Below, in pieces: positions 15,656 to 38,981 of a DNA stretch of 40,810 bases (the first letter of the stretch is position 1; the number at the start of each line of letters is the position of its first letter). Both the position numbers and the translations under genes were made by a program. The stretch comes from Candidatus Micrarchaeia archaeon (lineage in GTDB: Archaea; Micrarchaeota; Micrarchaeia; Anstonellales; Anstonellaceae). The notes under the pieces were generated by a model. That model ran no database searches. It was not told the origin of the DNA and was given only the letters and a program-made list of their open reading frames with translations. Location: contig JBAZTI010000001.1 in NCBI GenBank assembly GCA_041662045.1, forward strand, positions 41,111 to 81,920. The letters run 5' to 3'.

Positions 15656-15677
15656 GGCATTATTGTTATAAGAAATG

Positions 15678-15685: not shown

Positions 15686-15703
15686 TGAAGTTACTTGGCA
15701 GCA

Positions 15704-18011: not shown

Positions 18012-18040
18012 CTGCCCTGAAAGCACTTTCTGCGAGCAAA

Positions 18041-18055
18041 GCATGCCGCACATAA
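18041..18055. repeat. 15-nt direct repeat copy 1 (GCATGCCGCACATAA)
   Basis: Perfect copy of 18093-18107, in the spacer between the prs stop and the ATPase start. Confidence 0.6.
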
Positions 18056-18092
18056 GCATGAGGCGGCTCTGCCACAACACTCCACACGCGCG

Positions 18093-18107
18093 GCATGCCG
18101 CACATAA
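18093..18107. repeat. 15-nt direct repeat copy 2 (GCATGCCGCACATAA)
   Basis: Perfect copy of 18041-18055, 52 nt away. Confidence 0.6.
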
Positions 18108-18116
18108 ATGCAAATC

Positions 18117-22340: not shown

Positions 22341-22348
22341 TTTTAAAT
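22341..22348. promoter_or_regulatory. central TATA-like box in the gatD/DRG divergent spacer
   Basis: TTTTAAAT is centred at the midpoint between ATGs at 22318 (minus) and 22371 (plus), about 26 nt from each. Confidence 0.45.
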
Positions 22349-22370
22349 GGTTGGTGGCGCTAATAGGATC

Positions 22371-23787: not shown

Positions 23788-23796
23788 ATCACTTGC

Positions 23797-23928
23797 TCAT
23801 TTATGGATGCAGGTGAGAGCCTGTTCGACCGCGGAGGCGAGAATCTGCCTGGAAGACGCATCCAGCTTGATTGCCCGGGGCTGCTGCGGGAGTTCGGCTT
23901 GCCTTTGCTTGAACATCGGGTCCGGCAT
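23797..23928 (-). CDS. candidate small ORF (43 aa), absent from the ORF track
   Basis: MPDPMFKQRQAELPQQPRAIKLDASSRQILASAVEQALTCIHK. Preceded by GAGGTG plus 5 nt overlapping the upstream stop. Its stop lies 9 nt before the next ATG. Confidence 0.35.
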   Translation of the reverse strand: MPDPMFKQRQAELPQQPRAIKLDASSRQILASAVEQALTCIHK

Positions 23929-23937
23929 AAAAACACC

Positions 23938-24357
23938 TCATGCGATTATTTCGTGGATGACCTCGCTGCCTTTCTGGTAGTGGCGCTCTGCAAGCTCGCC
24001 GTTCCTGAAATATGAAAGCTCTGTGAAATCGCCGACGCGCAGCGAGAATATGCATGTTTCCGAGTCTGTGGCTATCTTGATGCTGTAGATTGCCGCGCCG
24101 TTCTTCCTCACCTTTTCCTCAGCCCCGAACAATACCTGCGCGTCGCTGACCTTTTCCGGGTTTTTCATGATGTAGGAAAGCTCCTTGCCCATGGGCGTGC
24201 CTTTGGCATGGAACGGGTCCCTGTAGGCATTGAGGATTATCCTTGCCGCTTCCTGGAGGTTCTGGGCGTGCGTTTCCTTGTAGAATTCCGTGGTGAGCTT
24301 CTCAGGGGGGGAAAATGAGATTGCCGGCTTTGGCGCCTTGTATGCTTCGGTTGCCAT
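23938..24357 (-). CDS. hypothetical protein (139 aa)
   Basis: ATG at 24357 within tracked ORF 23938..24624. The upstream part overlaps the divergent promoter and the alkD-like gene. Confidence 0.5.
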   Translation of the reverse strand: MATEAYKAPKPAISFSPPEKLTTEFYKETHAQNLQEAARIILNAYRDPFHAKGTPMGKELSYIMKNPEKVSDAQVLFGAEEKVRKNGAAIYSIKIATDSETCIFSLRVGDFTELSYFRNGELAERHYQKGSEVIHEIIA

Positions 24358-24380
24358 GCCATATTTGTGTTGCCTGCGCC

Positions 24381-24388
24381 TTATATAG
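24381..24388. promoter_or_regulatory. central TATA-like box in a divergent spacer
   Basis: TTATATAG lies about midway between ATGs at 24357 (minus) and 24410 (plus). Confidence 0.45.
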
Positions 24389-24409
24389 CTTTTCGTCAAA
24401 TCCACGCTT

Positions 24410-25087
24410 ATGAAGGCATACGAGCTTTTGGCGCACCTGAAGAACAAGGGCAAGCCCAAGAACCTGGAGGGCATGGCGCGCTTCGGCATCAACGTGGAGA
24501 AGGCGTACGGCGTGCCCATCCCGGAGCTGCGCAGGCTTGCAAGGCACATAGGCCCGCACCACGGGCTGGCGTTCGACCTGTGGCGCACGGGCATCCATGA
24601 GGCCAGGATACTTGCGGCATACATTGACGATTACAAGCGCGTCAGCGAGAAGCAGATGGAGGAGTGGGTGAAATGCTTCGACTCCTGGGACCTGTGCGAT
24701 CAGGTGTGCGGCAACCTGTTTGACAGGACGGAGTTTGCGCACAGGAAAGCCATCGAATGGAGCTTCCGCAAGGAGGAGTATGTGAAGCGCGCGGGCTTTG
24801 TGCTCATGGCGACCCTTGCCGTGCATGACAAGCGCGCGGGGAAGGCGGCTTTCGAGAAGTTCTTCCCGCACATTGTGCGCGGCTCCACTGACGAAAGGAA
24901 TTACGTGAAAAAGGCGGTGAACTGGGCGCTCCGCCAGATAGGCAAGAGGAGCTTCACGCTCAACAAGGAGGCGATTGCAGTCGCGCGCGAGATTGCGAAA
25001 ATCGACTCGCCCTCGGCAAAATGGGTGGCATCAAACGCGCTTTATGAGCTTGAGGGAGAGGCTGTGCAGAAGCGGCTGACCGAATGA
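24410..25087 (+). CDS. DNA alkylation repair protein (AlkC/AlkD-like HEAT-repeat family)
   Basis: MARFGI...YGVPIPELRRLA...LWRTGIHEARILA...DSWDLCD...VKKAVNWALR matches the family pattern as I remember it. Confidence 0.75.
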   Translation: MKAYELLAHLKNKGKPKNLEGMARFGINVEKAYGVPIPELRRLARHIGPHHGLAFDLWRTGIHEARILAAYIDDYKRVSEKQMEEWVKCFDSWDLCDQVCGNLFDRTEFAHRKAIEWSFRKEEYVKRAGFVLMATLAVHDKRAGKAAFEKFFPHIVRGSTDERNYVKKAVNWALRQIGKRSFTLNKEAIAVAREIAKIDSPSAKWVASNALYELEGEAVQKRLTE

Positions 25088-25090
25088 TGC

Positions 25091-25951
25091 TCATTTTTCC
25101 TTTCCTTCCTGTTCGGCCTTGAAGGAGGAAAACGGCTTGCTTGCCTTCTGGGACCAGAAAGATGGGAGCCTGTTTGCAACGAAACCCTCGAATTCGTCAG
25201 AGTAGACATAGGTGGCGTGCCGCCCTTTTTCCGGAAGCGTTTCAAAGCCGCTGGCTATGCGGCTGTAGATCTCCCCGATTTTCTTGCGCTCGAAGTCCAT
25301 CTGCAAAAGAGACGGCTTTCTGAGCAGGAGGTAATCGGACTGGCGGATGGCGTTTATCTCGAGATTGGATGAGTTTTGGGAAATGAAAAGGACCGAGATG
25401 TCCTTGTGCCTTGCTATCAGGATGAGGGAGGAGAGCAGCTTGTTGGCGCCTGACATGGACTGCCTTGAGGAAAACGCTATCCCTCCCTCGTCCACCAGCA
25501 CAAATGCGCCATTAGGGATGCTGCCAAGCTCCCCTGTGCAGGAGACCCAGGCCGGGAGGGCGGACTGCTCGAAGCCCATTGCATAGACCTGCCGGGTTTT
25601 TTTGGCCGCAATATTTTCAAGCAGGCGCATGCCAAGCGCGCTCTTGCCGCTTCCCCTTGCGCCAAGCACAAGGCCTATCGTGCTTTTAGAGGAATATATC
25701 TTCTCTTCGAATGCTGCAAGGCTTCCCTTCCGGGAGCGAATCTGCTCCAGCGGAATGCCTTCCGCGCGGATTGCCGGCCTTGAGGCGCGCTTGGCCGCGT
25801 CGTTGGACCCCCTGCCAACTGCAACGAGAGCTGAACTAAGCCAGTTGAAAAGCCACCTTGCCGAGACATAAATCACATGGAGGATTGATGAAACTAGCCA
25901 GACCCACGCATTCCACAGGCTGCCCGGAATTCCGGGCTTTTTTCTTGCCAT
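25091..25951 (-). CDS. Zot-like P-loop NTPase with an N-terminal TM segment
   Basis: TM WNAWVWLVSSILHVIYV, Walker A GARGSGKS, Walker B FVLVDEGG, then ARHKDISVLFISQ (like the HRH-x-G-x-D-(I/L)-x-x-x-(T/S)-Q of Zot/pI). Confidence 0.55.
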   Translation of the reverse strand: MARKKPGIPGSLWNAWVWLVSSILHVIYVSARWLFNWLSSALVAVGRGSNDAAKRASRPAIRAEGIPLEQIRSRKGSLAAFEEKIYSSKSTIGLVLGARGSGKSALGMRLLENIAAKKTRQVYAMGFEQSALPAWVSCTGELGSIPNGAFVLVDEGGIAFSSRQSMSGANKLLSSLILIARHKDISVLFISQNSSNLEINAIRQSDYLLLRKPSLLQMDFERKKIGEIYSRIASGFETLPEKGRHATYVYSDEFEGFVANRLPSFWSQKASKPFSSFKAEQEGKEK

Positions 25952-26018
25952 GCTGATGGGTTGGGAGGCTTGGTTTATTAACTTTTGATTGGCTGCGCTT
26001 GGAGGGCATCGGCAGTTA

Positions 26019-26030
26019 TATTAATTAATA
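26019..26030. promoter_or_regulatory. 12-bp perfect palindrome TATTAATTAATA in a divergent spacer
   Basis: Centred near the midpoint of the 141-nt spacer between 25951 (minus) and 26093 (plus). Contains a TAATAA half-site also found in the 57-nt operator repeats. Confidence 0.35.
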
Positions 26031-26092
26031 ACATGTAAGAAATGTTAGAAGGTGACTGGGAACCAAAGGAACTGGAAAACGGGTGAGCATGA

Positions 26093-26767
26093 ATGCCAAA
26101 AGCCGTCAACTACACAGACGAGGAGATTTTGCTTGCGCTTATCTGGTCCATGCCCAAAAAGGTGACCAAGGGCCAGATAGGCCGCCTCCTGGGGATCAAG
26201 TCCGCCGGGCAGAAGCACTGGCGCGAACGGTTGGAGAAGCTGGGAAAAAAGAGCCTGCTTTCGATTGAAAGGCTGGACACCGGGGAACTGTTCTTCGGGT
26301 CGCCCATCCTGAAGTATTACCTTACCGAGGCGAACCTGGAGGCGATTTGGGCCTACTATTTCAGCAACGATGAGCGCACCGGAAGGGTCAACGACCCTTT
26401 CCTGACCCCGTTTTCAGCCGGGATCTGGAATGTCACTTCGTCGCCCGAGTTTTCCAGGCTCGTGGGCTCGAAGTTCAACTACCATTTCCTTTGCGCCAAG
26501 AACGAGGCAAACCCGATAAATGCGTTGGAGCGCATCCGGTCGGCAAGCAAGGAAAAGATTTGGAAAACTATGGACGCCGTGCTCTCTATCGGCTGGAAGA
26601 CCGAGGCATATGGGAGAAAGCCCGTGCTGATGGACACGATGAGCCCCGAGCAGAAAAAGGCGTACAAGACCATAAAGTCGATTTACGACGGGCAGGTCAA
26701 GGCGCATCCGGCCGACTACAAGAAGTTCACTGCGCTGTTTGAGAAGGACTTCAAGTACTACCTCTGA
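26093..26767 (+). CDS. hypothetical protein with an N-terminal HTH-like segment, paralog 1
   Basis: MPKAVNY...TKGQIGRLLGIKSAGQKHWRERLEKLG. About 80-85% identical by eye to 27550..28227. Confidence 0.65.
   Translation: MPKAVNYTDEEILLALIWSMPKKVTKGQIGRLLGIKSAGQKHWRERLEKLGKKSLLSIERLDTGELFFGSPILKYYLTEANLEAIWAYYFSNDERTGRVNDPFLTPFSAGIWNVTSSPEFSRLVGSKFNYHFLCAKNEANPINALERIRSASKEKIWKTMDAVLSIGWKTEAYGRKPVLMDTMSPEQKKAYKTIKSIYDGQVKAHPADYKKFTALFEKDFKYYL
26387..26511 (+). repeat. 125-nt block identical to 27847..27971
   Basis: Compared base by base by eye. Encodes VNDPFLTPFSAGIWNVTSSPEFSRLVGSKFNYHFLCAKNEAN. Confidence 0.8.
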
Positions 26768-26846
26768 GCCGGGCGCATCCGCGAGCCATGGGCGCAAGAG
26801 AGGCATCCACACGCCTAGCCAGGGCCGGATTTTCCAACTCTTACCT

Positions 26847-26903
26847 AATACATAGTTATATATATGTGTATGGTTAATAAGTTATTAGATTAGTAATATG
26901 AAA
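26847..26903 (+). promoter_or_regulatory. 57-nt promoter/operator repeat, copy A (alternating-TA TATA element plus palindrome TAATAAGTTATTA)
   Basis: 49/57 ungapped identity to 29336..29392. TA run at 26857-26865. 13-nt palindrome at 26875-26887. Followed by SD AGGGGTG and the ATG at 26921. Confidence 0.65.
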
Positions 26904-26920
26904 GAATAGGGGTGTATATT

Positions 26921-27184
26921 ATGACCAAGAACGGGCGGATCCTTGACAAGGAGTTTGAAGATGGAATCACAGGCAGGGCTGGCGAACTGCAGAGGGAGGC
27001 GCAAGCCGGGATAAGCCGGGCGCAGGCAGGGGCGCAGTCCGGGATAAACAGGGCGCAGAGCTATGCATACGAAAAAAATGACGAGGTCGAAGCCATGATA
27101 AAGGAGCACCCGAAGGCGTTTGTGCTTGGGTCGTTCATCGGCGGGGTGGCCCTGGGCGCTTTGCTTGGCAGGGGAAACAAGTGA
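26921..27184 (+). CDS. DUF883/ElaB-YqjD-like tail-anchored membrane protein
   Basis: SD AGGGGTG lies 6 nt upstream. Tandem AQ(A/S)GI(S/N)RAQ repeats. The C-terminus EHPKAFVLGSFIGGVALGALLGRGNK resembles the ElaB-family anchor. Confidence 0.5.
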   Translation: MTKNGRILDKEFEDGITGRAGELQREAQAGISRAQAGAQSGINRAQSYAYEKNDEVEAMIKEHPKAFVLGSFIGGVALGALLGRGNK

Positions 27185-27504
27185 GCTTTCTTGATTCGGC
27201 CCTTGCATTTATCGAGGGCGTCAAGAGCGTGATAGATGCCTCTGGCGCGGCCCAGGGCGCCATCTCAGATTCCATCTCAAGCGGCATTGAACGCGCTTTC
27301 AAGAGCATCAGGCGGCCGCTTGAGCAGACCCTGATGAGGACCGCATTCATGTTTGTGAGCGTGTTCTTCATCGTTTGGGGGGCGGCGCTGTTCCTGGACA
27401 GCTTTGCGCCATACCGGGGCACGGGTTTTGTGCTGGCGGGAGCGCTCTTTGGAGCCGTGGCCTCGCTTTTCCTTAAGGAAAAGGAACCCGGGCGCTGTTG
27501 TTAG
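27181..27504 (+). CDS. small two-TM membrane protein
   Basis: GTG start overlaps the previous stop (GTGA). Helices AFMFVSVFFIVWGAALFL and GFVLAGALFGAVASLFL. Confidence 0.5.
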   Translation: MSFLDSALAFIEGVKSVIDASGAAQGAISDSISSGIERAFKSIRRPLEQTLMRTAFMFVSVFFIVWGAALFLDSFAPYRGTGFVLAGALFGAVASLFLKEKEPGRCC

Positions 27505-27549
27505 TGCGGCTATAAGATTCGAAAATATTTTGAAATGGGGGTTGTCAGG

Positions 27550-28227
27550 ATGCCAAAAGCAGCAAATTACTCCAATACTGAGATTTTGCTTGCGTTAATC
27601 TGGGTCATGCCCAAAAGGATGACCAAGGGGCAGATCGGCCGCCTCCTGGGGATAAAGTCCGCCGGGCAGAAGCACTGGCGCGAGCGGCTGGAGAAGCTGG
27701 GAGACAATGACCTGCTGACAGTGGAAACGCTTGACGCAGGGGAGTTGTTCTCAGGGTCGCCTATCCTGAAGTATTACCTTACCGAGGCAAACCTGGAAGC
27801 GATTTGGCGGCAGTATTTCGTAAATTATGATGAGCGCCACGGCTTGGTCAACGACCCTTTCCTGACCCCGTTTTCAGCCGGGATCTGGAATGTCACTTCG
27901 TCGCCCGAGTTTTCCAGGCTCGTGGGCTCGAAGTTCAACTACCATTTCCTTTGCGCCAAGAACGAGGCAAATCCGACCAAGCCCATGGAGAGCGTCGGAT
28001 CGGTGAGCAAGGAAAAGATTTGGAAAACCATGGATGCCGTGCTCTCTATCGGCTGGAAGACCGAGGCATACGGGAGAAAGCCCGTGCTCATGGACACGAT
28101 GGGCCCTGAACAGAAAAGGGCGTACAAGACCCTAAAATCCCTTTATAACGAGCAGATAAAGGCGCACCCTGCGGACTACAAGAAGTTCACTGCGCTTTTT
28201 GAGAAGGACTTCAAGTACTACCTGTAA
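27550..28227 (+). CDS. hypothetical protein with an N-terminal HTH-like segment, paralog 2
   Basis: ATG at 27550 (MPKAANY...). Paralog of 26093..26767. Confidence 0.65.
   Translation: MPKAANYSNTEILLALIWVMPKRMTKGQIGRLLGIKSAGQKHWRERLEKLGDNDLLTVETLDAGELFSGSPILKYYLTEANLEAIWRQYFVNYDERHGLVNDPFLTPFSAGIWNVTSSPEFSRLVGSKFNYHFLCAKNEANPTKPMESVGSVSKEKIWKTMDAVLSIGWKTEAYGRKPVLMDTMGPEQKRAYKTLKSLYNEQIKAHPADYKKFTALFEKDFKYYL
27847..27971 (+). repeat. 125-nt block identical to 26387..26511
   Basis: See the partner entry. Confidence 0.8.
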
Positions 28228-28236
28228 GCCCGCGCG

Positions 28237-28251
28237 TTTTGCAGTTTTTTT
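28237..28251 (+). terminator. oligo-T terminator
   Basis: GTTTTGCAGTTTTTTT lies 10-24 nt after the stop at 28227. Confidence 0.4.
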
Positions 28252-28318
28252 AGACCGCCTAGCTGTGGGCAGTGACAATGGCAAAAGATTGGGAGAGCCT
28301 GGGCTCTTCCAAGGGCAT

Positions 28319-29323
28319 TCACTGCTTCTTATTTCCAGTTTCGCGGGTTTCAATCGCATCTTCAATGAGCATAAGCGAATTAACCAGCACCAGCGGGCCT
28401 ATGATGAACCCAAAAATCCCAAAAACGCCGATTCCGCCAAGCACGCCAACAAGCAGAATAAACGGATGAATATGCGACCTGCCGCCAACAAACCGGGTGT
28501 AGAAGTAAAACTCGATGCCGATCCAGAGGATTAGACCCAGTATGAGTATGCCCCCGGCAGTGGCGTATTGGCCGATTGAGAAATAATAGAGCGCCAGCGG
28601 GATCCAGATAAGTTCGGTGCCAATGCCGGGCATGAAAGCGAATATGAAGACCAGGGCGGCAAAGACCAGGCTCGCCTGAACTCCGACCAAGGAAAAGCCA
28701 ATAAACGCGATGACCCCCTCGAGCAACGAAACCGAGCCATGGCCAAGGACGATTGCGTCGGTCGTGCTCCCGAGCTTGGCGACCGTTTTGTCGTTGTCCT
28801 TGAACGGCAGGTATTTCTTCAGGTGGGAAGAAAGCTCGTCCCATCTGCACAAGAGATAAAACATGCCATTCAGGGTGACGACCAGGCCTATGATAAAGTT
28901 CGGGGCGGACATGATAAGGGAATTGACCAGGGCATCTATGGCCAGGACGATGGATGCCTTGAGCCCGTCTGTGTCGATGTTCAGGCTTTTCAGGAATGGC
29001 TGGCCCAGGAAAGTATCGAGCATGCGCGCAAGCCCTTGGCCCTTGGAGATCCCGCCCACCTGGTTCAGAATCTCGATTGTGATCAGGAAGATGGGCACTA
29101 CCACCAGGATAACCGTGATCGCGAGGCAAAACAATGCCGCCAGCGTAGTGCCGTACCGGGTCTTGAGTATCAGGAACAGCGGCCTGACCAAAAAAGCCAG
29201 GGCGTACGCCGAGATTATTGCGCCAATGAAAGGCAGCACAATCAATGCTGAAAGCAGGATAAACCCTAGGACCACTGCCCAAAGCAAATAATTGTGAAGC
29301 TGGAGCCGGCGCAGCAAGTTCAT
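28319..29323 (-). CDS. AI-2E family transporter (PerM/UPF0118)
   Basis: 334 aa, about 8 TM. FMPGIGTELIWIP and HPFILLVGVLGGIGVFGIFGFIIGP match the family's C-terminal signature. Confidence 0.75.
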   Translation of the reverse strand: MNLLRRLQLHNYLLWAVVLGFILLSALIVLPFIGAIISAYALAFLVRPLFLILKTRYGTTLAALFCLAITVILVVVPIFLITIEILNQVGGISKGQGLARMLDTFLGQPFLKSLNIDTDGLKASIVLAIDALVNSLIMSAPNFIIGLVVTLNGMFYLLCRWDELSSHLKKYLPFKDNDKTVAKLGSTTDAIVLGHGSVSLLEGVIAFIGFSLVGVQASLVFAALVFIFAFMPGIGTELIWIPLALYYFSIGQYATAGGILILGLILWIGIEFYFYTRFVGGRSHIHPFILLVGVLGGIGVFGIFGFIIGPLVLVNSLMLIEDAIETRETGNKKQ

Positions 29324-29335
29324 ATTAGATTATGG

Positions 29336-29392
29336 AATACATAGCTATATATATGTATATGTTTAATAGGCTATTATATTCATAATATGAAA
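29336..29392 (+). promoter_or_regulatory. 57-nt promoter/operator repeat, copy B (TATA element plus palindrome TAATAGGCTATTA)
   Basis: 49/57 identity to copy A. TA run at 29346-29354. Palindrome at 29364-29376, with A:T replaced by G:C symmetrically in both arms. Confidence 0.65.
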
Positions 29393-29424
29393 AACTGCAA
29401 GAACGGAGGAAACAGGCCGTTGAA

Positions 29425-29871
29425 ATGGAGATGATATGGATGGGTAAGCACAACACAGTGTCTGGAATTCTTGTTTTTGTCGTCCTTTTGACGATTGTGG
29501 CGGCCACTGTCATGGTGGTAACTTACGCCACGGGCGTTTTGGCATCGGCAGTTGCTTTTGCGTCATCGGACCAGGTTGCCAAGATGCAATCATGCGGGAT
29601 AGCCGCCCCTCCCGAGTTATTCAAGCTCCAGGCGGACGTTTCAAGCCTCCTGATTCCGGCAATTTATGTGGGTTTCCCGGGATTGATGATAGCCATCGCA
29701 ATACTGATGTTCATAGCGGGGCATTACTACGGCAGCGATAAGGAAGGGCACAGCAGCAGCGAAACCACCGTCACGACTTCCAGCCCGAACAGGAACCATG
29801 GCAAGTACGCGAGGGGCAGGCGTGTTGAGGAGACGCGAACGCAGCGATCGTCCAAGAGCGAGGAAACGTAG
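29425..29871 (+). CDS. two-TM membrane protein with a hydrophilic Ser/Thr/Arg-rich tail
   Basis: Helices ILVFVVLLTIVAATVMVV and GFPGLMIAIAILMFIAG. First gene after operator copy B. Confidence 0.55.
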   Translation: MEMIWMGKHNTVSGILVFVVLLTIVAATVMVVTYATGVLASAVAFASSDQVAKMQSCGIAAPPELFKLQADVSSLLIPAIYVGFPGLMIAIAILMFIAGHYYGSDKEGHSSSETTVTTSSPNRNHGKYARGRRVEETRTQRSSKSEET

Positions 29872-29915
29872 CTTTGAAGATAATTGAAATGAGATAAACA
29901 ACGAGGTGGATAGGT

Positions 29916-30035
29916 ATGGCAAAGAAAAGCAGGGGCGGAAGGATGACAGCGGCCAAGAGGCGCGCTGCGGCTGGCAAGGGCGGAAAGGGAATGGTCAAGA
30001 ATCGCCCGGCAGGAAAGAATATCATGAAGACATAG
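29916..30035 (+). CDS. candidate 39-aa highly basic small protein, absent from the ORF track
   Basis: MAKKSRGGRMTAAKRRAAAGKGGKGMVKNRPAGKNIMKT. GAGGTG lies 6 nt upstream of the ATG. It fills the gap between neighbouring genes. Confidence 0.35.
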   Translation: MAKKSRGGRMTAAKRRAAAGKGGKGMVKNRPAGKNIMKT

Positions 30036-30043
30036 GCTTGGGA

Positions 30044-30823
30044 ATGAGAAGGAAATTGACGGGGGGTTTGATGGGAACATGGGTTTTGCTAATGGCAGCG
30101 TTAGTTGCATCGGTTCTGTTGCCGGGCTGCACAGGCGGCTGCAATGACGCATCATGCACCAATGGCGGATTCTGCATTGGCCTCAACTGCAATGCCACCC
30201 AGCAGCAGCCTGCGCAAAATGCGCCGGCAATCAACGCGAGGACAGGCGCGAACATTGAGCCGTTGGGGGGGTTGCCGCAACAGCAGAAGCAATACACTTG
30301 CTCGCTCACGCTCAACCCGTCAACCATCCCCCCTGGCAGCTCCACAGACATAGGCTTTGCCGTGCAGTCAGAGCAAAAGGTGGTGTTCACTTACAACTGC
30401 GGCAATGAAATACGTGAAATTTCCACCGGCGGCCTGACCAGCGGTTCGAGGCTGTGCCAGTTTGATACTCCAGGCAGCGTGAACGTTTGGATAAAGGCGG
30501 ATGGTGCGGTATGCGCGCAAAAAACGCTTATTGTCCAGCCGCTCCAGACTGCCAAGACATGCTATATAGACCAGGCCAGTGTGAAGCGAGACCTTGCCAA
30601 CTACTATTACGAGGCCAGGGTGCAGTTCTTGGGCTTTGCCCCGCAGGACGAGCTCGTGTGGATATGCGACCGCACCACAGCCAGGCATCCGCTGGGAGGG
30701 GGCGGAAGCGCGGGAATGCCCCTTTACAGCGACATCTACTGCGACTTTGCAAACCAGCCTGTAAACAGCGCCATTGAGGTCTCGATAGGGGATGTTTCGT
30801 GCGGCAGCATTTCAACCAGATGA
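30044..30823 (+). CDS. Cys-rich lipobox protein
   Basis: ATG at 30044. Signal MRRKLTGGLMGTWVLLMAALVASVLLPGC, followed by CNDASCTNGGFCIGLNC and beta-rich domains. The tracked start at 29906 is rejected. Confidence 0.6.
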   Translation: MRRKLTGGLMGTWVLLMAALVASVLLPGCTGGCNDASCTNGGFCIGLNCNATQQQPAQNAPAINARTGANIEPLGGLPQQQKQYTCSLTLNPSTIPPGSSTDIGFAVQSEQKVVFTYNCGNEIREISTGGLTSGSRLCQFDTPGSVNVWIKADGAVCAQKTLIVQPLQTAKTCYIDQASVKRDLANYYYEARVQFLGFAPQDELVWICDRTTARHPLGGGGSAGMPLYSDIYCDFANQPVNSAIEVSIGDVSCGSISTR

Positions 30824-30871
30824 GGAACATGCGGATGCTAGGACCGAATGAGGGAATGTGGAGGGGATGCT

Positions 30872-31135
30872 ATGTCTAGGCAGTATATAGAAATTGGAAC
30901 GCTGATAGTTGCTTTGGTTGCCCTGTGGCTGCTGTTCGTGTTTATCCAGAACCCCGTGGCCCTCCTGGTCAACTCGGTTTTCGCAATCATCCTGCTGATG
31001 CTCTTGAACATCATCTTCAAGGTGGGCATACCCATCAATATAATCACCGTCCTGGTAGTCGCAATAGGCGGCATCATCGGCCTTCTGCTGATACTCCTAT
31101 TCCGATTCTCGAACGTGGCATTCTATAACGAATAA
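30872..31135 (+). CDS. BofA-like small membrane protein 1
   Basis: NPVALLVNSVFAIILLMLLN...GIPINIITVLVVAIGGIIGLLLILL resembles the BofA family pattern (IPIN...LG-PG). Confidence 0.5.
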   Translation: MSRQYIEIGTLIVALVALWLLFVFIQNPVALLVNSVFAIILLMLLNIIFKVGIPINIITVLVVAIGGIIGLLLILLFRFSNVAFYNE

Positions 31136-31146
31136 GAGGTGGGCAT

Positions 31147-31398
31147 ATGGTTTTCTTCGTAGAATTTGGGGCGCTGCTGCTTGCGCTGTTCATTCTATAC
31201 CTGATATACACCCTCCTGAAAAACCCAGTGTATGTCGTTGCCAACGCAGTCATGGGCATCATTGTGTTCATGATTGTGAACATGTTCCTGGTGCGCGACG
31301 TTGCAATCAATTTTTTCTCAATTGCAATAGTTGCAATTGCAGGAATCCCCGGAGTGCTGCTGGTCCTGCTGCTCCATTTCCTGGGCCTTGGGTTCTGA
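31147..31398 (+). CDS. BofA-like small membrane protein 2
   Basis: NPVYVVANAVMGIIVFMIVN...AINFFSIAIVAIAGIPGVLLVLL. Tandem paralog of the previous gene. Confidence 0.5.
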   Translation: MVFFVEFGALLLALFILYLIYTLLKNPVYVVANAVMGIIVFMIVNMFLVRDVAINFFSIAIVAIAGIPGVLLVLLLHFLGLGF

Positions 31399-31422
31399 CG
31401 CCAAGAAAAACGAGGTGCATTT

Positions 31423-32352
31423 ATGGAAACAGACAAAATGGCCCTGCTTTTCGCAGTGGCGGCAATCTCGCTGTTCGCAGCCGGCTGCGCGCAGGAGGGA
31501 AGCGGAGCTTCTGCAGGCCAGGGAAGGGCGGTATTCGCAGTTACTGATGCTGCAGCTGATATGGGCCAGGTATCAAGCATCAAAATGACCGTGGACAGCA
31601 TGCAGGTGCAAAGCCCCTCGCAGGGCTGGATAACCGTTTCATCGGCATCCAAGACCTATGACTTGCTGCAGCTGAAGGCATCCGGCGCAAGCGCGCTTCT
31701 TGCGGATGCTAACCTGACGGCAGGAAGCTACGGCCAGGTCAGGATGCACATATCCAAAGTAATAGTCACTGATTCTTCCGGCGACCATGAGGCAAAGCTG
31801 CCTTCAGGCGACTTGAGGATTGCCGGCGGTTTCGAAGTGGCGAACAATTCCACCACAACAGTTACTTTTGACTTCCTGGCAAGCGAGTCCCTGCATATGA
31901 CCGGAAACGGCTTGTACATCCTGGCGCCAGTTGTGCACCTGCAGGAGAGGCAAGGCGCACAGGTTGACGCCAGCAGCCAGGCAAATGTCAGGATAACCGG
32001 CGGCAGGATTGGCACGGATATGAAGATTGGCATGGATGAGAAGGGCAATGCCGGGGCCGGGCTCGGGATACCTGCAAATGCCAACCTAGCGATTAATGGA
32101 AACGCAGTGGTGGTGCTTGGAACAGGCAAAGGCTCAGTTGAGGGGCAGCCCCCTTTCGGGAACGGATTGAACAATATATGGGCAACTGATGTGACTGCCT
32201 GCACAGCCATTTCCGACCAGCAGGAGAGGCTTTCCTGCATAGCCCAATGGTGCGGGTCGGAAGACAGGGATTACCAGAAATGTTACGACCTTACTGATGA
32301 GGACGACAGGCTCGGATGCCTGAATAAGTGCAACCCTAACTCGAACATTTGA
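31423..32352 (+). CDS. DUF4382-like lipobox protein with a Cys-rich C-terminal module
   Basis: Signal ...AISLFAAGC. AVTDAAADMG...GWITV...YDLLQLK...LTAGSYGQVRMHI matches DUF4382 as I remember it. C-terminus CTAIS...CIAQWC...KCY...GCLNKC. Confidence 0.6.
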   Translation: METDKMALLFAVAAISLFAAGCAQEGSGASAGQGRAVFAVTDAAADMGQVSSIKMTVDSMQVQSPSQGWITVSSASKTYDLLQLKASGASALLADANLTAGSYGQVRMHISKVIVTDSSGDHEAKLPSGDLRIAGGFEVANNSTTTVTFDFLASESLHMTGNGLYILAPVVHLQERQGAQVDASSQANVRITGGRIGTDMKIGMDEKGNAGAGLGIPANANLAINGNAVVVLGTGKGSVEGQPPFGNGLNNIWATDVTACTAISDQQERLSCIAQWCGSEDRDYQKCYDLTDEDDRLGCLNKCNPNSNI

Positions 32353-32373
32353 GGGTCTGGAACGGTGCGGTAT

Positions 32374-32592
32374 ATGCAATTGCTATTGGCGCAATGTGAC
32401 GAGCTTGCTGCGCAAAGGCTAGCAGGGCAGGGGATGTGGGAAGAGTCCCAGCCAGGCCAGGAGGAAGAGCTCAGGCCCATTGAAATCGATATCTCAGAAA
32501 ATGCCAGGCCCGAGGGGGCGCGGGAGTTTCTTCACAATGCAGCTGAGTTCCTCATAATCTCCATTTCCGGCTGCGGCCCCAAAAGGCGGTAA
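32374..32592 (+). CDS. hypothetical acidic protein (72 aa)
   Basis: The stop lies 1 nt before the next ATG, suggesting coupling. No recognisable motif. Confidence 0.35.
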   Translation: MQLLLAQCDELAAQRLAGQGMWEESQPGQEEELRPIEIDISENARPEGAREFLHNAAEFLIISISGCGPKRR

Positions 32593-32593
32593 T

Positions 32594-32905
32594 ATGAAGA
32601 CGTTGATGATAACTGCGTTGCTGCTTGCGTTGCTTATTGCATATGGCTGCGTTTTGCAGCCCCTCCCACAAGCCTGCACAGAAGAAGCGAAAATCTGCCC
32701 TGATGGCAGCGCTGTTGGCCGCCAGGGCCCGGATTGCGAGTTTGCGTCCTGCCCGCAAGCCGAAACTAATTCCACGCCATGCACAGACCATGGCTGGCGC
32801 GAATGCGGCAGTTTCACTGGCTGCGAAGTCTGCGCCTCGTGCCCCGGCTGCGATGCGCCCTCCTGCCAGACCGTGAACTTTTGCGCAAGCATGGGCGCCA
32901 ATTAG
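32594..32905 (+). CDS. small Cys-rich lipobox protein
   Basis: Signal MKTLMITALLLALLIAYGC, then about 14 further Cys in 84 residues. Confidence 0.6.
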   Translation: MKTLMITALLLALLIAYGCVLQPLPQACTEEAKICPDGSAVGRQGPDCEFASCPQAETNSTPCTDHGWRECGSFTGCEVCASCPGCDAPSCQTVNFCASMGAN

Positions 32906-32910
32906 TGGGA

Positions 32911-33258
32911 ATGTGGATTCGAGGTGAAGCGGTGGGAAAAAATGATGAAGCCAAAATAACCATCTGCACGGCGCCGCCAGGGCTATATGCCGTGATTAAG
33001 AACATGGAAAGGCCGGAAGACTCGGACGTGCTGCATACCATGCAGGTTGTGACTGCTTTCAAATACACGTACCAGGGGGATGGCGCAGGGGGGATTTTTT
33101 CCGAGCCATTAGTCTATTGCGAAAGTAAAAATGCAAACGCGCTCATTGATGGCAAGTCAAAAATCGAATTCGTCGGCTCGTTTGAAAATTGCGTTTTGAG
33201 GATAAAGGAGCTGATTTCGGCTTATTACGCTGTGAAAAATAAGAAGAACGGCGTGTGA
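32911..33258 (+). CDS. hypothetical cytoplasmic protein (115 aa)
   Basis: ATG at 32911, in frame within tracked ORF 32779..33258. Last gene of the plus-strand operon. Confidence 0.45.
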   Translation: MWIRGEAVGKNDEAKITICTAPPGLYAVIKNMERPEDSDVLHTMQVVTAFKYTYQGDGAGGIFSEPLVYCESKNANALIDGKSKIEFVGSFENCVLRIKELISAYYAVKNKKNGV

Positions 33259-33308
33259 AAGGAAAAAATAAAGAAAAAGAAGAGAAAAAAACAAAGGAAA
33301 AAAGAAAC
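33259..33308 (-). terminator. T/C-rich multi-oligo-T terminator region for hppA
   Basis: The plus strand reads AAGGAAAAAATAAAGAAAAAGAAGAGAAAAAAACAAAGGAAAAAAG. The minus strand carries several T5-T7 runs directly after the hppA stop. Confidence 0.5.
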
Positions 33309-35342
33309 TCAAATAGCCCCTACCTGCTTGCCTGCGATTATCGCCGCGACAAGCAAGGAGACGATGTTGAGTATCTTTATCATTGGATTGAGCGCGGGGC
33401 CAGATGTGTCCTTGAACGGGTCGCCCACAGTGTCGCCCACCACCGCAGCCTTGTGCGCGTCTGAGCCTTTCCCGCCGAAGTGGCCTTCCTCTATGTACTT
33501 CTTGGCGTTGTCCCATGCCCCGCCCGCGTTTGACATGAATATTGCCATGAGCTGGGAGACCAGTATGGCGCCGGCAAGGAAGCCGCCCAGCGCCTCAAGC
33601 CCGAGCGTGAAGCCAAGCACTATGGGGGTGAGCACCACGAGCGCCGCTGGCAAGTAAAGCGAGTCTATTGCCGCCTTGGTGGAGATGTCCACGCATGCTG
33701 CATAGTCGGGGTCGATTGTGCCTTTCATGATGCGCGGGTCGCGGAACTGCCTGCGCACCTCCTCCACCACAAGGTTTGCCGCCTTGCCCACAGCTTTCAT
33801 GGTGAGCGAGGAGAAGATGAAGGGAAGCGCGCCGCCTATGAGGAGCCCTATGAAGACATTGGGCAGCGCGACGTTTATCGCTGTGAGCCCGGTGGTCTCA
33901 AAATAGGTGGAAAAGAGCGCCACCGCAGCGATTGCCGCGGATGAGATGGCAAACCCCTTGGTGACTGCCTTGGTGGTATTCCCGACCGCGTCGAGCTTGT
34001 CCATCCGCTTCCTGCCTTTGGGCGAAAGCCCGGACATCTCGCCGATTCCGTTTGCGTTGTCCGATATCGGCCCGAAGGTGTCCATTGCCATTATCATGGC
34101 CGTGGTGGAAAGCATGCCCAGCCCCACAAGCGCAATCCCGAAATAGCCAAGGCCGAATGCATAGTAGCCCACCCCTATAGAGGCGGCTACCACAAGGATG
34201 CCTGCCACGGCGGATTCCATGCCCACCCCCAGCCCGGAAATCAGGTTGGTGCCTGCGCCGGATTTTGCCGCTGCTGCAATCTCCTGCACCGGCTTGTGCT
34301 TTGTTGAAGTATAGTAGTCGGTCAGGTTCATTATCACATGCGTGGCGAAAAGCCCGGTAAGCAGGGCGAAGAAAGGCTCGCTGCTCCCGAGCATGAACAC
34401 CGAGAGCGCGGCAAATGCGATTGCCTGCAGCACCGTTGAGTAGAGGAAGCCCCGCTTCATCGCCTCAAATGGGTATTCGCCCTCGTTTTTGACGCGGACG
34501 AAAACGCTTGACGCAAGGGCGAGCAGCATTCCGATGCCTGCCACGAAAAGCGGGAAAAGCGCGCCGTTTATCCCAAGGGCGAAACCGAGCACCATGGTGG
34601 ATATGATTGTCACGGTGTAGGACTCGAACACGTCTGCGCCCATGCCTGCGCAGTCGCCCACATTGTCGCCCACGTTGTCTGCGATGGTCGCGGGGTTGCG
34701 CGGGTCGTCCTCAGGGATGCCCTTTTCAACCTTGCCAACCAGGTCGGCGCCCACATCCGCCGCCTTGGTGTAGATGCCTCCACCCACCCTCATGAAAAGC
34801 GCCAGGAGGTTGGCGCCGAACCCAAAGCCGATGAGCGCCTGCCCTGCCTGGGCAAGCGCTGCGTCATTTGCCCCAAGCGAGAGGTATGCGCCTATGAAAA
34901 CAACCGCAACGCCCAGGAGCCCGACGCCTGACACGAGCGAGCCCGACACCACGCCTGCGGAGAACGGGACGGAAAGCGCGTCCTGCATTGAGGAAAGCGA
35001 CGCCTGCGCAGCGCGCGCGTTTGAGCGCACTGACAGGTACATGCCGAAGTAGCCCACTAGCCCGGAGCATGCCGCGCCCACCACAAAGGCGGACGCCACC
35101 AGGGCTCCCAGCGCAAGATAGACCACAATGGTGAGGATGACTGCGAATATTGCAATGGTGCGGAACTGGCGCGACAGGTAGGCGTCCGCGCCCTCGCGGA
35201 TTGCCTTGGAAATTTTCTTCATCCTGTCCGTGCCCTCACTTTTCCTGAAGATGGAGAGCGCAACCATGATGCCGTATGCTATTCCAACCACTGCAAGCGC
35301 AACCGGGAGGTAAAGCGCAAAGCCCGGCAGTGTTCCTGACAT
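33309..35342 (-). CDS. hppA: membrane-bound proton/sodium-translocating pyrophosphatase
   Basis: GGIYTKAADVGADLVGK, DNVGDNVGDCAGMGADVFES and GDTVGDPFKDTSGPALN motifs. ATG at 35342, with GAGGTGAT about 9 nt upstream. Confidence 0.93.
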   Translation of the reverse strand: MSGTLPGFALYLPVALAVVGIAYGIMVALSIFRKSEGTDRMKKISKAIREGADAYLSRQFRTIAIFAVILTIVVYLALGALVASAFVVGAACSGLVGYFGMYLSVRSNARAAQASLSSMQDALSVPFSAGVVSGSLVSGVGLLGVAVVFIGAYLSLGANDAALAQAGQALIGFGFGANLLALFMRVGGGIYTKAADVGADLVGKVEKGIPEDDPRNPATIADNVGDNVGDCAGMGADVFESYTVTIISTMVLGFALGINGALFPLFVAGIGMLLALASSVFVRVKNEGEYPFEAMKRGFLYSTVLQAIAFAALSVFMLGSSEPFFALLTGLFATHVIMNLTDYYTSTKHKPVQEIAAAAKSGAGTNLISGLGVGMESAVAGILVVAASIGVGYYAFGLGYFGIALVGLGMLSTTAMIMAMDTFGPISDNANGIGEMSGLSPKGRKRMDKLDAVGNTTKAVTKGFAISSAAIAAVALFSTYFETTGLTAINVALPNVFIGLLIGGALPFIFSSLTMKAVGKAANLVVEEVRRQFRDPRIMKGTIDPDYAACVDISTKAAIDSLYLPAALVVLTPIVLGFTLGLEALGGFLAGAILVSQLMAIFMSNAGGAWDNAKKYIEEGHFGGKGSDAHKAAVVGDTVGDPFKDTSGPALNPMIKILNIVSLLVAAIIAGKQVGAI

Positions 35343-35372
35343 CACCAAATTATCACCTCAAATTCCCTGGGC

Positions 35373-38884: not shown

Positions 38885-38981
38885 GGGCCCATAGCTCAGC
38901 TTGGTAGAGCAGTGGACTCTTATGCACGCAAAAGCGCGCAGAGCCATCCACGTGTCGTGGGTTCGAATCCCACTGGGCCCG
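38885..38981 (+). tRNA. tRNA-Lys (CUU) with a 23-nt intron at the canonical 37/38 position
   Basis: GGGCCCA TA GCTC AGCTTGGTA GAGC A GTGGA CTCTTA [38923-38945] A TCCAC GTGTC GTGGG TTCGAAT CCCAC TGGGCCC G. BHB motif: 4-bp helix CUCU/AGAG flanked by 3-nt bulges UAU and CCA. Confidence 0.88.

What the first reader, a model, noticed from the sequence alone, without database searches (positions are those of the whole stretch)
25091..33258. Lower-GC accessory island of about 8 kb: Zot-like membrane ATPase, duplicated HTH-like genes, and operons of small membrane and Cys-rich secreted proteins (cryptic virus/plasmid remnant or envelope-remodelling island)
Sampled lines give about 50-54% GC in the island, against 62-65% in the flanking alkD-like and hppA genes. 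The island contains:
- a P-loop NTPase with Zot/pI-like motifs and a TM segment
- two paralogous HTH-like genes
- an AI-2E permease
- two operons of short membrane proteins, two BofA-like proteins, three lipobox Cys-rich proteins and candidate mini-ORFs
A Zot/pI-type ATPase together with many short TM proteins is the signature used to detect cryptic filamentous (inovirus-like) elements. Here, however, the TM is N-terminal, I see no integrase or replication initiator, and I found no flanking direct repeats by eye. The alternative is a chromosomal cell-surface island.
Basis: partly seen in the sequence, partly recalled or inferred. Interest (0 to 1): 0.65.

Follow-up and report, generated by a model that had tools for sequence, protein, structure and literature searches.

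The report
Conserved archaeal envelope cluster, swapped ATPase
The 8-kb stretch is not a hidden virus or plasmid but a chromosomal cluster of membrane and surface-protein genes that related Micrarchaeota carry at the same site, and only its Zot/pI-like ATPase gene is a separately inherited insert.

Summary
The GC dip is real but about half the claimed size: 53.5% in the island against 58.6% elsewhere, with alkD and hppA at 59-60%.

The cryptic virus/plasmid reading is not supported.
- From the first wHTH gene to the last small ORF (26.0-33.3 kb), the block lies between alkD and hppA in every related Micrarchaeia contig that spans the site. Only local rearrangements differ.
- There is no integrase, Rep, capsid, att repeat or adjacent tRNA.
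- IMG/VR holds no close relative of the ATPase or the wHTH protein. PHROGs gives two sub-significant ATPase hits.
- Assembly depth in the island equals that of the flanks.

The ATPase is a true distant relative of Zot/pI morphogenesis ATPases. It belongs to a cellular family found across DPANN archaea, usually among housekeeping genes. In Woese/Nanoarchaeota it has fixed Trm5-ATPase-FEN1 synteny.

At this locus the ATPase is the variable piece. It is a 0.92-kb single-gene module with its own promoter, from a different clade and on the opposite strand compared with close relatives. Some relatives have an empty slot or a different gene there.

Best reading: a lineage-specific envelope cluster with PadR-like regulators, plus a xenologous ATPase insertion in a hotspot.

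The parts
25091..25951 (-). 286-aa Zot/pI-superfamily ASCE P-loop ATPase. It has Walker A (GARGSGKS), Walker B (VLVDEGG), an N-terminal hydrophobic helix, and conserved PSLLQ..FER and LPSFWS motifs. It belongs to clade A of a DPANN-wide family.
25088..26013 (-). Extent of the ATPase module: the gene plus about 55 bp of its own upstream region, with a TATA-like TTAATAAA on the minus strand at 25974-25981. It sits between the alkD stop codon and the wHTH promoter.
   Evidence: DNA similarity to syntenic relatives ends at 25087/25088 and resumes at 26014. In between, only clade-A ATPase loci match (L085: 81.7% over 25111-26004). The slot is empty in L094 (73 bp) and L135 (107 bp).
26093..26767 (+). 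wHTH regulator paralogue 1 (224 aa). It has an N-terminal PadR/MarR-like winged helix and a C-terminal all-helical domain with no good structural match.
26847..26903 (+). AT-rich 57-nt promoter-like repeat, copy 1, upstream of the 90-aa/107-aa gene pair. It contains ATACATA-N9-TATGT(G)TAT around a TATA-like run.
   Evidence: A similar element lies upstream of the same gene pair in L006.
26912..27184 (+). 90-aa protein with one C-terminal TM segment (tail-anchored).
   Evidence: It is conserved next to the wHTH gene in 12 of 51 loci.
27181..27504 (+). 107-aa protein with two TM segments; its start overlaps the stop of the 90-aa gene.
   Evidence: The Pfam Phage_holin_3_6 hit (E 0.14) is not significant.
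27535..28227 (+). wHTH regulator paralogue 2 (230 aa as the ORF reads; the conserved start MPKA is at 27550).
   Evidence: 84% identical to paralogue 1; DNA repeats D1 and D2.
28319..29323 (-). AI-2E family (PerM/YtvI-like) permease, 334 aa.
   Evidence: Pfam PF01594, E 5.5e-30; NCBIfam YtvI, E 1.5e-17, below cut-off.
29336..29392 (+). AT-rich 57-nt promoter-like repeat, copy 2 (86% identical to copy 1). It lies in the divergent spacer between the AI-2E gene and the 148-aa gene.
29425..29871 (+). 148-aa membrane protein with two hydrophobic segments and a charged C-terminal tail. First gene of the surface operon.
   Evidence: Conserved in L006, L007, L018, L037, L094 and others.
29906..30823 (+). 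Cys-rich secreted or lipid-anchored protein with 14 Cys. The likely start is 30044 (MRRKL...), followed by a signal peptide ending LLPGC.
   Evidence: It is 62-77% identical in relatives.
30848..31135 (+). BofA-family small membrane protein 1.
   Evidence: PF07441, 32.3 bits against a 26.1 cut-off.
31147..31398 (+). BofA-family small membrane protein 2.
   Evidence: PF07441, 37.9 bits.
31423..32352 (+). DUF4382 protein with a signal peptide ending FAAGC and a Cys-rich C-terminal tail.
   Evidence: PF14321, E 2.2e-19; sequence.
32594..32905 (+). 103-aa protein with 13 Cys and a signal peptide ending IAYGC.
   Evidence: It is 45-64% identical in relatives.
32911..33258 (+). Small soluble protein of unknown function. 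The conserved part is the last ~102 aa of the 159-aa ORF. It is the last gene before hppA.
   Evidence: 78% identical in L007 and 67-73% in L094, L104 and L138.

Best explanation
The region holds two things with different histories.

(1) 26.0-33.3 kb is a lineage-specific chromosomal gene cluster of a Micrarchaeia (DPANN) archaeon. It encodes cell-envelope proteins:
- a tail-anchored protein paired with a 2-TM protein;
- an AI-2E permease;
- an operon of one 2-TM protein, two BofA-family proteins, a DUF4382 protein and two Cys-rich proteins with signal peptides.
The cluster also encodes one or two copies of a highly conserved PadR-like winged-helix protein. I infer that this protein regulates the adjacent operons through the AT-rich promoter repeats. 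The duplicated wHTH genes and promoter repeats provide homology that could explain why gene order is reshuffled between relatives. The secreted components evolve fastest, as expected for surface proteins of an episymbiont.

(2) 25.09-26.01 kb is a separate 0.92-kb single-gene module with its own promoter. It encodes a membrane-associated ATPase of the Zot/pI branch of ASCE P-loop ATPases. The family is conserved across DPANN as a cellular gene. In this genome the copy is a xenologue that landed in the alkD-wHTH intergenic hotspot. It is not the orthologue that close relatives carry there.

Shown: synteny, family membership, module boundaries and phylogenetic discordance.
Inferred: the regulatory role of the wHTH proteins, the envelope function, and the membrane association and role of the ATPase. 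My best guess for the ATPase is an ATP-driven membrane assembly or translocation step, by analogy with pI.
For: Synteny of the island body
- L094 carries DRG-o101-alkD-wHTH-AI2E-s90-s107-tm148-cys305-bofA-bofA-DUF4382-cys103-o159-hppA in 11.1 kb.
- L006, L007 and L104 carry the same families, with 1 or 2 wHTH copies and a different order.
- More distant Micrarchaeia keep wHTH with AI2E, s90/s107, tm148, bofA and DUF4382 (L037, L092, L108, L113). Counts over 51 wHTH loci: AI2E 14, s90 12, tm148 11, bofA 11.

No sign of a mobile element
- Pfam, PHROGs, NCBIfam and PADLOC give no mobile-element or defence hallmark.
- IMG/VR holds no relative of the ATPase or the wHTH protein.
- Independent unitigs of run X1 span both borders (24773-25999 and 31064-33378). 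Depth is 4.5-6.5x, the same as the flanks, and no circular joints are seen.

The ATPase as a cellular family
- 922 homologues, all with DPANN names where named.
- At least 280 stretches in the GTDB species-representative genomes encode a relative.
- In Woese/Nanoarchaeota it is flanked by Trm5/TYW2 (21 loci), FEN1 (19) and tRNA-splicing endonuclease (10). In Micrarchaeota it sits beside RNAP, aaRS, PolD and hppA genes.
- It is homologous to pI-like ATPases: hhalign 95.8% to WyrdV1 and Zot hits in 30 of 32 members. Foldseek finds the STIV B204 and A32 packaging ATPases, a Nitrosopumilus spindle-shaped virus protein and Inoviridae Zot.

The ATPase as a xenologue at this site
- The window ATPase groups with L085 (83%), L004, L005, L086 and L001. 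It is 60-62% identical to the syntenic L006 and L007 copies and on the opposite strand.
- L006 and L007 are 82% identical to each other at equal flank divergence.
- DNA breakpoints fall at 25088 and 26013.
- The slot is empty in L094 and L135, and holds a different 152-aa ORF in L096 and L141.
Against: - The island body is compositionally distinct: GC3 is about 10 points lower, and tetranucleotide correlation with the window is 0.79. An old foreign origin therefore cannot be excluded.
- The ATPase lies next to island genes in several lineages (L003, L006, L007, L018, L019, L037, L098). This could mean a functional link rather than coincidence.
- No function of any island protein has been tested. 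The wHTH protein has no Pfam match, and its global fold match to PadR/VanR is poor (TM 0.25-0.3).
- Whether relatives with an empty slot carry the ATPase elsewhere is unknown.
- The read evidence comes from assembled contigs, which cannot show rare circular forms.
Confidence: 0.8

Rival explanations
1. One reading: a cryptic filamentous (inovirus-like) or spindle-virus-like provirus or plasmid remnant. A pI/Zot-type morphogenesis ATPase and small TM coat-like proteins would be integrated between alkD and hppA.
For: - The ATPase is homologous to pI-like ATPases of viruses.
- Many short TM proteins lie nearby.
- GC3 is lower and tetranucleotide usage deviates.
Against: - The island body is fixed at the same site in all spanning relatives. 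Its divergence is normal to fast, at 45-86%.
- The ATPase and the small TM genes are inherited separately: the slot can be empty, hold another clade, or be on the opposite strand.
- There is no Rep, integrase, capsid, att repeat or tRNA target.
- IMG/VR holds no close relatives.
- The ATPase family sits in housekeeping synteny across DPANN.
- Depth equals the flanks.
Confidence: 0.04
2. An anciently acquired island, now domesticated. The 26.0-33.3 kb block would have entered an ancestor of this Micrarchaeia group by horizontal transfer and become fixed, which would explain its deviant composition.
For: - GC is 0.535 against 0.586, and tetranucleotide correlation is 0.79.
- The wHTH family has a narrow distribution (131 proteins, all at least 63% identical) and is multi-copy in some MAGs.
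- wHTH is about 80% identical even in L037, whose ATPase is 53% and whose other cluster proteins are 27-62% identical.
Against: - The GC dip is weak or absent in the syntenic regions of L007, L006 and L037.
- Low GC2 and GC3 are expected for membrane proteins rich in Ile, Phe and Leu, and for weakly expressed genes.
- No donor lineage or mobility gene is seen.
- The same families cluster in distant Micrarchaeia, which fits vertical inheritance.
Confidence: 0.15
3. The ATPase works with the island. It would be a pI-like membrane ATPase that energises assembly or export of the neighbouring small TM and Cys-rich surface proteins, and that is why an ATPase copy keeps being found at this site.
For: - The ATPase lies next to cluster genes in L003, L006, L007, L018, L019, L037, L098 and the window.
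- Two different clades of the ATPase occupy the same slot.
- Distant relatives of the ATPase domain are fused to thioredoxin, C39-like peptidase and AhpC/TSA domains, which act on secreted or Cys-containing proteins.
Against: - The cluster exists without an ATPase at the site in L094 and L135.
- Only 2 of 51 wHTH loci and 6 of the 83 ATPase loci first examined show the linkage.
- In Woese/Nanoarchaeota the ATPase neighbours are Trm5 and FEN1 on other strands.
- Most fused relatives have no predicted TM segment.
Confidence: 0.15
4. Assembly chimera: the ATPase gene was joined into this contig by mis-assembly of two Micrarchaeota populations.
For: The ATPase is phylogenetically discordant with its flanks.
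Against: - An independent Logan unitig of run X1 covers 24773-25999 with no differences, at the same depth as the flanks.
- A unitig from a different study (X2) covers 25863-26068.
- The breakpoints coincide exactly with gene and promoter boundaries.
Confidence: 0.03

Closest known systems
Zot / pI morphogenesis ATPases (Pfam PF05707) of inoviruses, and the pI-like 'AAA+ ATPase' of archaeal spindle-shaped viruses (e.g. Lokiarchaeota virus WyrdV1, MZ666939.1; a Nitrosopumilus spindle-shaped virus protein)
   Same: - Same ASCE P-loop core with Walker A and B.
- Profile match to the WyrdV1 protein: 95.8% probability, 32% identity over 116 columns.
- Zot hits in 30 of 32 family members.
- Structural matches to Inoviridae Zot and the spindle-shaped virus protein, and to 2r2a.
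- A hydrophobic helix suggests work at the membrane.
   Different: - It is cellular, spread across DPANN, and sits in housekeeping synteny.
- The hydrophobic helix is N-terminal. There is no TM plus periplasmic domain after the ATPase, as pI has.
- It has its own conserved C-terminal motifs (PSLLQ..FER, LPSFWS..SK).
- It has no linked coat, Rep or secretin genes.
- The window protein scores below the Pfam Zot cut-off (18.5 against 20.3 bits).
FtsK-HerA superfamily packaging ATPases (STIV B204, poxvirus A32-like)
   Same: These are the best Foldseek matches in the PDB (4r2h, E 5.5e-6) and BFVD (Medusavirus A32-like, E 1.3e-7). The core is of similar size.
   Different: TM-scores are only 0.4-0.58 and sequence identity 12-14%. 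No sequence-level match was found. The genomic context is not viral.
PadR-family winged-helix regulators (e.g. B. subtilis PadR 5x11, VanR 5z7b)
   Same: Same two-part plan: an N-terminal wHTH plus a C-terminal helical domain. These are the top Foldseek hits. The gene sits beside membrane-protein operons, as is common for PadR-like regulators (from general knowledge).
   Different: No Pfam PadR match and a poor global superposition (TM 0.25-0.3). The protein is unusually conserved (63-86% identity) within a narrow Micrarchaeia clade and is often duplicated.
Genomic islands and integration hotspots of prokaryotic chromosomes
   Same: The alkD-wHTH spacer behaves like a hotspot. In close relatives it is empty, or holds ATPase clade A(-), ATPase clade B(+), or an unrelated 152-aa ORF.
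   Different: The inserts are single genes without integrase, transposase or clear target-site duplications. The 8-kb 'island' itself is not the variable unit.

Membership tests
Cryptic inovirus-like provirus (pI/Zot marker plus small coat proteins) | A pI-like ATPase with a Zot domain | tested here: met
   Met at superfamily level only. Pfam Zot scores 18.5 bits, below the 20.3 cut-off. 30 of 32 relatives hit at E<=0.01. hhalign gives 95.8% to the WyrdV1 pI-like ATPase.
Cryptic inovirus-like provirus (pI/Zot marker plus small coat proteins) | pI architecture: an N-terminal ATPase followed by a TM segment and an extracytoplasmic C-terminal domain | tested here: not met
   The hydrophobic helix is N-terminal (residues 8-56), and no TM segment follows the ATPase domain.
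Cryptic inovirus-like provirus (pI/Zot marker plus small coat proteins) | A replication initiator and/or integrase in the element | tested here: not met
   Pfam, PHROGs and NCBIfam find no such hit in any island protein.
Cryptic inovirus-like provirus (pI/Zot marker plus small coat proteins) | The element is gained or lost as a unit between related genomes, with att repeats | tested here: not met
   The island body is present in all spanning relatives, and only the ATPase gene varies. No credible flanking repeats were found.
Cryptic inovirus-like provirus (pI/Zot marker plus small coat proteins) | Relatives in viral sequence collections | tested here: not met
   IMG/VR scans with the ATPase profile and the wHTH protein confirmed no relative; those scans used patterns specific to these two families. 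GenBank phages give only remote hits of E 5e-5 or weaker.
Cryptic inovirus-like provirus (pI/Zot marker plus small coat proteins) | An extrachromosomal or circular form, or excess coverage | tested here: inconclusive
   Depth in the island equals the flanks and no circular joints are seen. However, only assembled contigs of the runs were available, not raw reads.
Zot family, Pfam PF05707 | Score at or above the Pfam gathering threshold | tested here: not met
   The window protein scores 18.5 bits against 20.3. Some relatives pass, with a best E of 5.6e-6.
PadR-like wHTH regulators | An N-terminal winged helix-turn-helix fold | tested here: met
   The AF2 model (pLDDT 80) has H-H-H-strand-strand over residues 9-76. 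Foldseek finds PadR, VanR, MarR and AbfR, with TMt about 0.5 for the wHTH part.
PadR-like wHTH regulators | A match to the PadR sequence family | tested here: not met
   No Pfam or NCBIfam hit, and no PDB sequence hit.
PadR-like wHTH regulators | Binds operators in the promoters of neighbouring genes | not testable with these tools
   Only circumstantial evidence: conserved AT-rich promoter repeats with dyad symmetry at 26847-26903 and 29336-29392.
BofA family, PF07441 | Pfam score above the cut-off, and a small protein that is hydrophobic throughout | tested here: met
   32.3 and 37.9 bits against 26.1; hydrophobic throughout.
AI-2E transporter family, PF01594 | Pfam score above the cut-off over the full length | tested here: met
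   105 bits against 34.3, covering residues 19-316.
Horizontally acquired genomic island | Composition deviates from the host | tested here: met
   Modest deviation: GC 0.535 against 0.586, and tetranucleotide correlation 0.79 against about 0.95. It is weaker in the syntenic relatives.
Horizontally acquired genomic island | Presence/absence polymorphism among close relatives | tested here: not met
   Not met for 26.0-33.3 kb. It is met only for the 0.92-kb ATPase module.

The most novel reading that the evidence does not exclude
The DPANN-wide Zot/pI-like ATPase could be a domesticated, or ancestral, counterpart of the morphogenesis ATPases of filamentous and spindle-shaped viruses. DPANN cells would use it for a membrane assembly or translocation step, for example building surface or cell-cell contact structures from small membrane proteins.

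On this reading its gene is a self-contained promoter-plus-ORF module. Micrarchaeota would exchange it and re-insert it at hotspots, so that xenologues replace residents while the function stays essential.
Probability: 0.15. Interest if true: 0.7.

Novelty: new variant of a known kind. Interest (0 to 1): 0.4.

Why it matters
A Zot/pI-type ATPase next to short TM proteins is used as a signature for cryptic inoviruses. This case shows the rule gives a false positive in DPANN archaea, because a cellular branch of that ATPase superfamily is widespread there.

The case also flags three things in organisms whose surface biology underlies their symbiotic lifestyle:
- an uncharacterised, very conserved DPANN ATPase family with viral morphogenesis relatives;
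- a narrow, highly conserved wHTH family in Micrarchaeia;
- a conserved envelope gene cluster.

The envelope cluster itself is otherwise an ordinary chromosomal locus.

Tried and rejected
- PHROGs on ten island proteins: only two sub-significant ATPase hits.
- PADLOC: only Walker-A-level hits such as mad8 residues 22-57, so I rejected a defence-system reading.
- PDB sequence search with the ATPase profile: only P-loop-level matches such as Ras and F1 alpha, all at E>0.1. The wHTH profile found nothing.
- att-like repeats: the only pair spanning the island (25171-25198 and 33147-33174, 28 nt, 71% identical) lies inside ORFs and looks like chance.
- My recollection that the 90-aa/107-aa pair resembles the bacterial YqjD(ElaB)/YqjE pair: Pfam gave only Phage_holin_3_6 at E 0.14 for the 107-aa protein and nothing for the 90-aa protein. 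I keep it as a lead only.
- The idea that long ATPase-domain relatives share the pI topology (ATPase-TM-outside domain): only P0339 has a borderline TM segment after the ATPase, and most have none.
- Literature searches for Zot in DPANN, and for BofA in Micrarchaeota: no paper found in the held library.
- An exact search for the 57-nt repeat in the other loci found nothing. An alignment then showed a slightly different copy in L006.
- One context look-up failed because the server did not answer. One returned gene calls but no DNA.

Full report
**Setting**

The window comes from a DPANN archaeon of the Micrarchaeota. Around the finding lie housekeeping genes, in this order:
- a HerA-like DUF87 ATPase (16533-18113), PRPP synthase, GatE, GatD;
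- a DRG GTPase (22347-23459), a 101-aa ORF, and an AlkD-like gene (24410-25087);
- then the finding (25091-33258);
- then H+-pyrophosphatase (33309-35348, minus strand), a PIN protein, aTrm56, TFE and tRNA-Met.

Homologues of the island proteins carry Micrarchaeota names wherever they are named.

**Observation**

All the listed genes are real ORFs at the given coordinates, and their family calls hold:
- AI-2E, E 5.5e-30;
- two BofA-family proteins, above the Pfam cut-off;
- a DUF4382 protein;
- three proteins with a signal peptide ending in Cys, holding 14, 7 and 13 cysteines;
- two 84%-identical paralogues with a predicted winged helix.

The composition claim is overstated. The island is 53.5% GC against 58.6% for the rest of the window, and alkD and hppA are 59-60%, not 62-65%. 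GC3 falls by roughly ten points, and tetranucleotide usage correlates 0.79 with the window against about 0.95 elsewhere. Two other patches of the window are as low or lower in GC.

The 'N-terminal TM' of the ATPase is a long aromatic-rich hydrophobic helix, borderline by hydropathy: 1.51 for the window protein, with 17 of 32 relatives reaching 1.6.

**The island body is syntenic**

I fetched 83 loci through the ATPase (plus context look-ups) and 51 loci through the wHTH protein. This showed that the block from the wHTH gene to the last small ORF lies between alkD and hppA in every related contig that spans the site.
- L094 holds DRG (94%), the 101-aa ORF, alkD (82%), wHTH, AI-2E, the 90-aa and 107-aa genes, the 148-aa gene, the Cys-rich protein, two BofA genes, DUF4382, the small Cys-rich protein, the last ORF and hppA (92%), all in 11.1 kb.
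- L006, L007 and L104 hold the same families, with one or two wHTH copies and a different order of the AI-2E and 90/107-aa genes.
- More distant Micrarchaeia (L037, L092, L108, L113) still keep wHTH next to these families.

Identities follow an ordinary pattern. Flanking genes are 82-95% identical, membrane proteins 59-86%, and secreted Cys-rich and DUF4382 proteins 45-77%.

**No mobile-element hallmarks**

- Pfam, PHROGs, NCBIfam and PADLOC find no integrase, Rep, capsid, transposase or defence protein.
- No credible flanking repeats exist, and no tRNA abuts the island.
- IMG/VR contains no confirmed relative of the ATPase or of the wHTH protein. Those scans used family-specific peptide patterns, so only fairly close relatives would have been caught.
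- In the run that holds the sequence, independent unitigs span both borders (24773-25999 and 31064-33378). The island has the same 4.5-6.5x depth as its flanks, and no joints indicate a circle. Only assembled contigs were available, so rare forms would be missed.

**The ATPase is Zot/pI-like but cellular**

The family has 922 detectable members in the 90%-clustered database. All named ones are DPANN, they are 47-81% identical to the window protein, and some sit on contigs up to 1.57 Mb. At least 280 stretches in the GTDB species-representative genomes encode a relative, including Micrarchaeota, Iainarchaeota, Woesearchaeota and Nanoarchaeota.

A profile search of 1.84 billion representatives finds 866 clusters at E<=1e-10. 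They include longer proteins in which the same core is fused to thioredoxin, C39-like peptidase, AhpC/TSA, Fic or HTH domains.

Homology to the viral morphogenesis ATPases is real but distant:
- 30 of 32 members hit Pfam Zot at E<=0.01;
- tblastn against GenBank phages finds first the WyrdV1 protein, annotated there as related to pI of filamentous phages, then two inovirus Zot genes;
- hhalign gives 95.8% probability to the WyrdV1 protein;
- Foldseek places the AF2 model (pLDDT 80) among the STIV B204 and A32 packaging ATPases, RecA/KaiC/HerA, a Nitrosopumilus spindle-shaped virus protein and Zot, with TM-scores of only 0.35-0.6.

The genomic context is housekeeping. In Woese/Nanoarchaeota the order Trm5/TYW2(-), ATPase(+), FEN1(-), tRNA-splicing endonuclease is conserved in 21, 19 and 10 loci respectively. 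In Micrarchaeota the neighbours are RNA polymerase, aminoacyl-tRNA synthetases, PolD and hppA.

**The ATPase is the variable piece at this locus**

- In L006 and L007 an ATPase sits between alkD and wHTH on the plus strand. In the window it is on the minus strand.
- In L094 and L135 the slot is empty (73 and 107 bp).
- In L096 and L141 the slot holds an unrelated 152-aa ORF.
- A neighbour-joining tree puts the window protein with L085 (83%), L004, L005, L086 and L001. All of these lie in different contexts.
- The L006/L007/L003/L008 proteins form another clade.
- At equal flank divergence, L007 against L006 is 82% identical in the ATPase, while L007 against the window is 60%.
- DNA similarity to the syntenic relatives stops at the alkD stop codon (25087/25088) and resumes at 26014. 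In between, only clade-A ATPase loci match, and that match includes 53 bp upstream of the start codon with a TATA-like box.

The ATPase is therefore a 0.92-kb promoter-plus-gene module of foreign (clade A) origin in a hotspot. It is not part of the island. Mis-assembly is unlikely, given the unitig support from two studies.

**The wHTH family**

Only 131 proteins were found. All are about 225 aa, at least 63% identical, and from Micrarchaeia. There is no Pfam or PDB sequence match.

The AF2 model (pLDDT 80) has an N-terminal winged helix and a helical C-terminal domain. PadR, VanR and MarR are the top structural hits, but the global fit is poor.

The window has two copies. Each precedes or ends a membrane-protein operon. 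A 57-nt AT-rich repeat with dyad symmetry lies upstream of the 90-aa gene and again upstream of the 148-aa gene, and a similar element precedes the 90-aa gene in L006. I infer local regulation, which is untested. I also infer that the duplicated wHTH genes and repeats are the substrate for the rearrangements seen between relatives.

**Verdict**

The headline interpretation (virus or plasmid remnant) is not supported.

Two points go beyond ordinary annotation. First, a cellular, DPANN-wide branch of the Zot/pI ATPase superfamily can mislead inovirus detection. Second, that gene undergoes xenologous, orientation-independent replacement in an intergenic hotspot.

A functional link between the ATPase and the envelope cluster remains possible, because adjacency recurs in several lineages. 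It is not required by the data, since the cluster exists without an ATPase at the site and the ATPase usually sits elsewhere.

Noticed in passing
L096:1615-2284 and L141:2268-2949 (same slot as window 25088-26013): In two close relatives the alkD-wHTH slot holds a low-GC 152-aa ORF on the minus strand with no family match. Directly after alkD there is an imperfect ~22-nt duplicate of the alkD 3' end (GCAGAAAAGGCTGGCAGAATGA / GCGGAAAAGGCTGGCAGAGTAA), which may be the scar of an insertion.
   Followed up: partly
window 26847-26903 and 29336-29392: A 57-nt AT-rich repeat (86% identical) with dyad symmetry (ATACATA..TATGTAT) around a TATA-like run lies upstream of two operons. A similar copy lies upstream of the 90-aa gene in L006. 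It is a candidate operator for the wHTH proteins.
   Followed up: partly
L007:10860-11040: The spacer after the clade-B ATPase contains a run of short GC-rich hairpins, such as CAGAACGTcgcAACGTTCTG and CCAGAACGGttcgCCGTTCTGG. They could be terminators or a small repeat element.
   Followed up: no
window 13698-15700: This is the lowest-GC patch of the window (0.47). It has ORFs without any Pfam match (122 aa, 181 aa and a 356-aa ORF on the minus strand), and lies next to a 366-aa orphan ORF and a HerA-like DUF87/FtsK-type ATPase (16533-18113). It looks more like recently acquired DNA than the reported island does.
   Followed up: partly
window 38885-38981: Rfam finds a second tRNA (97 nt, 59 bits) that ARAGORN misses. 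It probably contains an intron, and it overlaps the spurious N-terminal extension of the polyprenyl synthase ORF.
   Followed up: no
P0339, P0355, P0335, P0300 (relatives of the ATPase domain); L088: Long proteins keep the GxRGSGKS, DEAG, ARHK, PSLLQ and LPSFWS motifs but are fused to thioredoxin, a C39-like peptidase, AhpC/TSA or Fic domains. P0339 lies next to a large Eco57I/N6-methylase/SNF2 fusion protein, a context that looks mobile or defence-related.
   Followed up: partly
L025 and L053 (contigs of MAG JAZDKC01): One MAG carries two diverged ATPase copies on different contigs. This is consistent with transient coexistence of xenologues, or with bin contamination.
   Followed up: no
L131:2-3511: In one relative a wHTH gene abuts hppA(-) and PIN(-) directly. 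The whole surface operon therefore lies elsewhere or is missing at that junction, another structural variant of the region.
   Followed up: no
window 23788-24409: About 600 bp between the 101-aa ORF and alkD has no convincing gene. The 228-aa minus-strand ORF there is mostly antisense to alkD and looks spurious.
   Followed up: no
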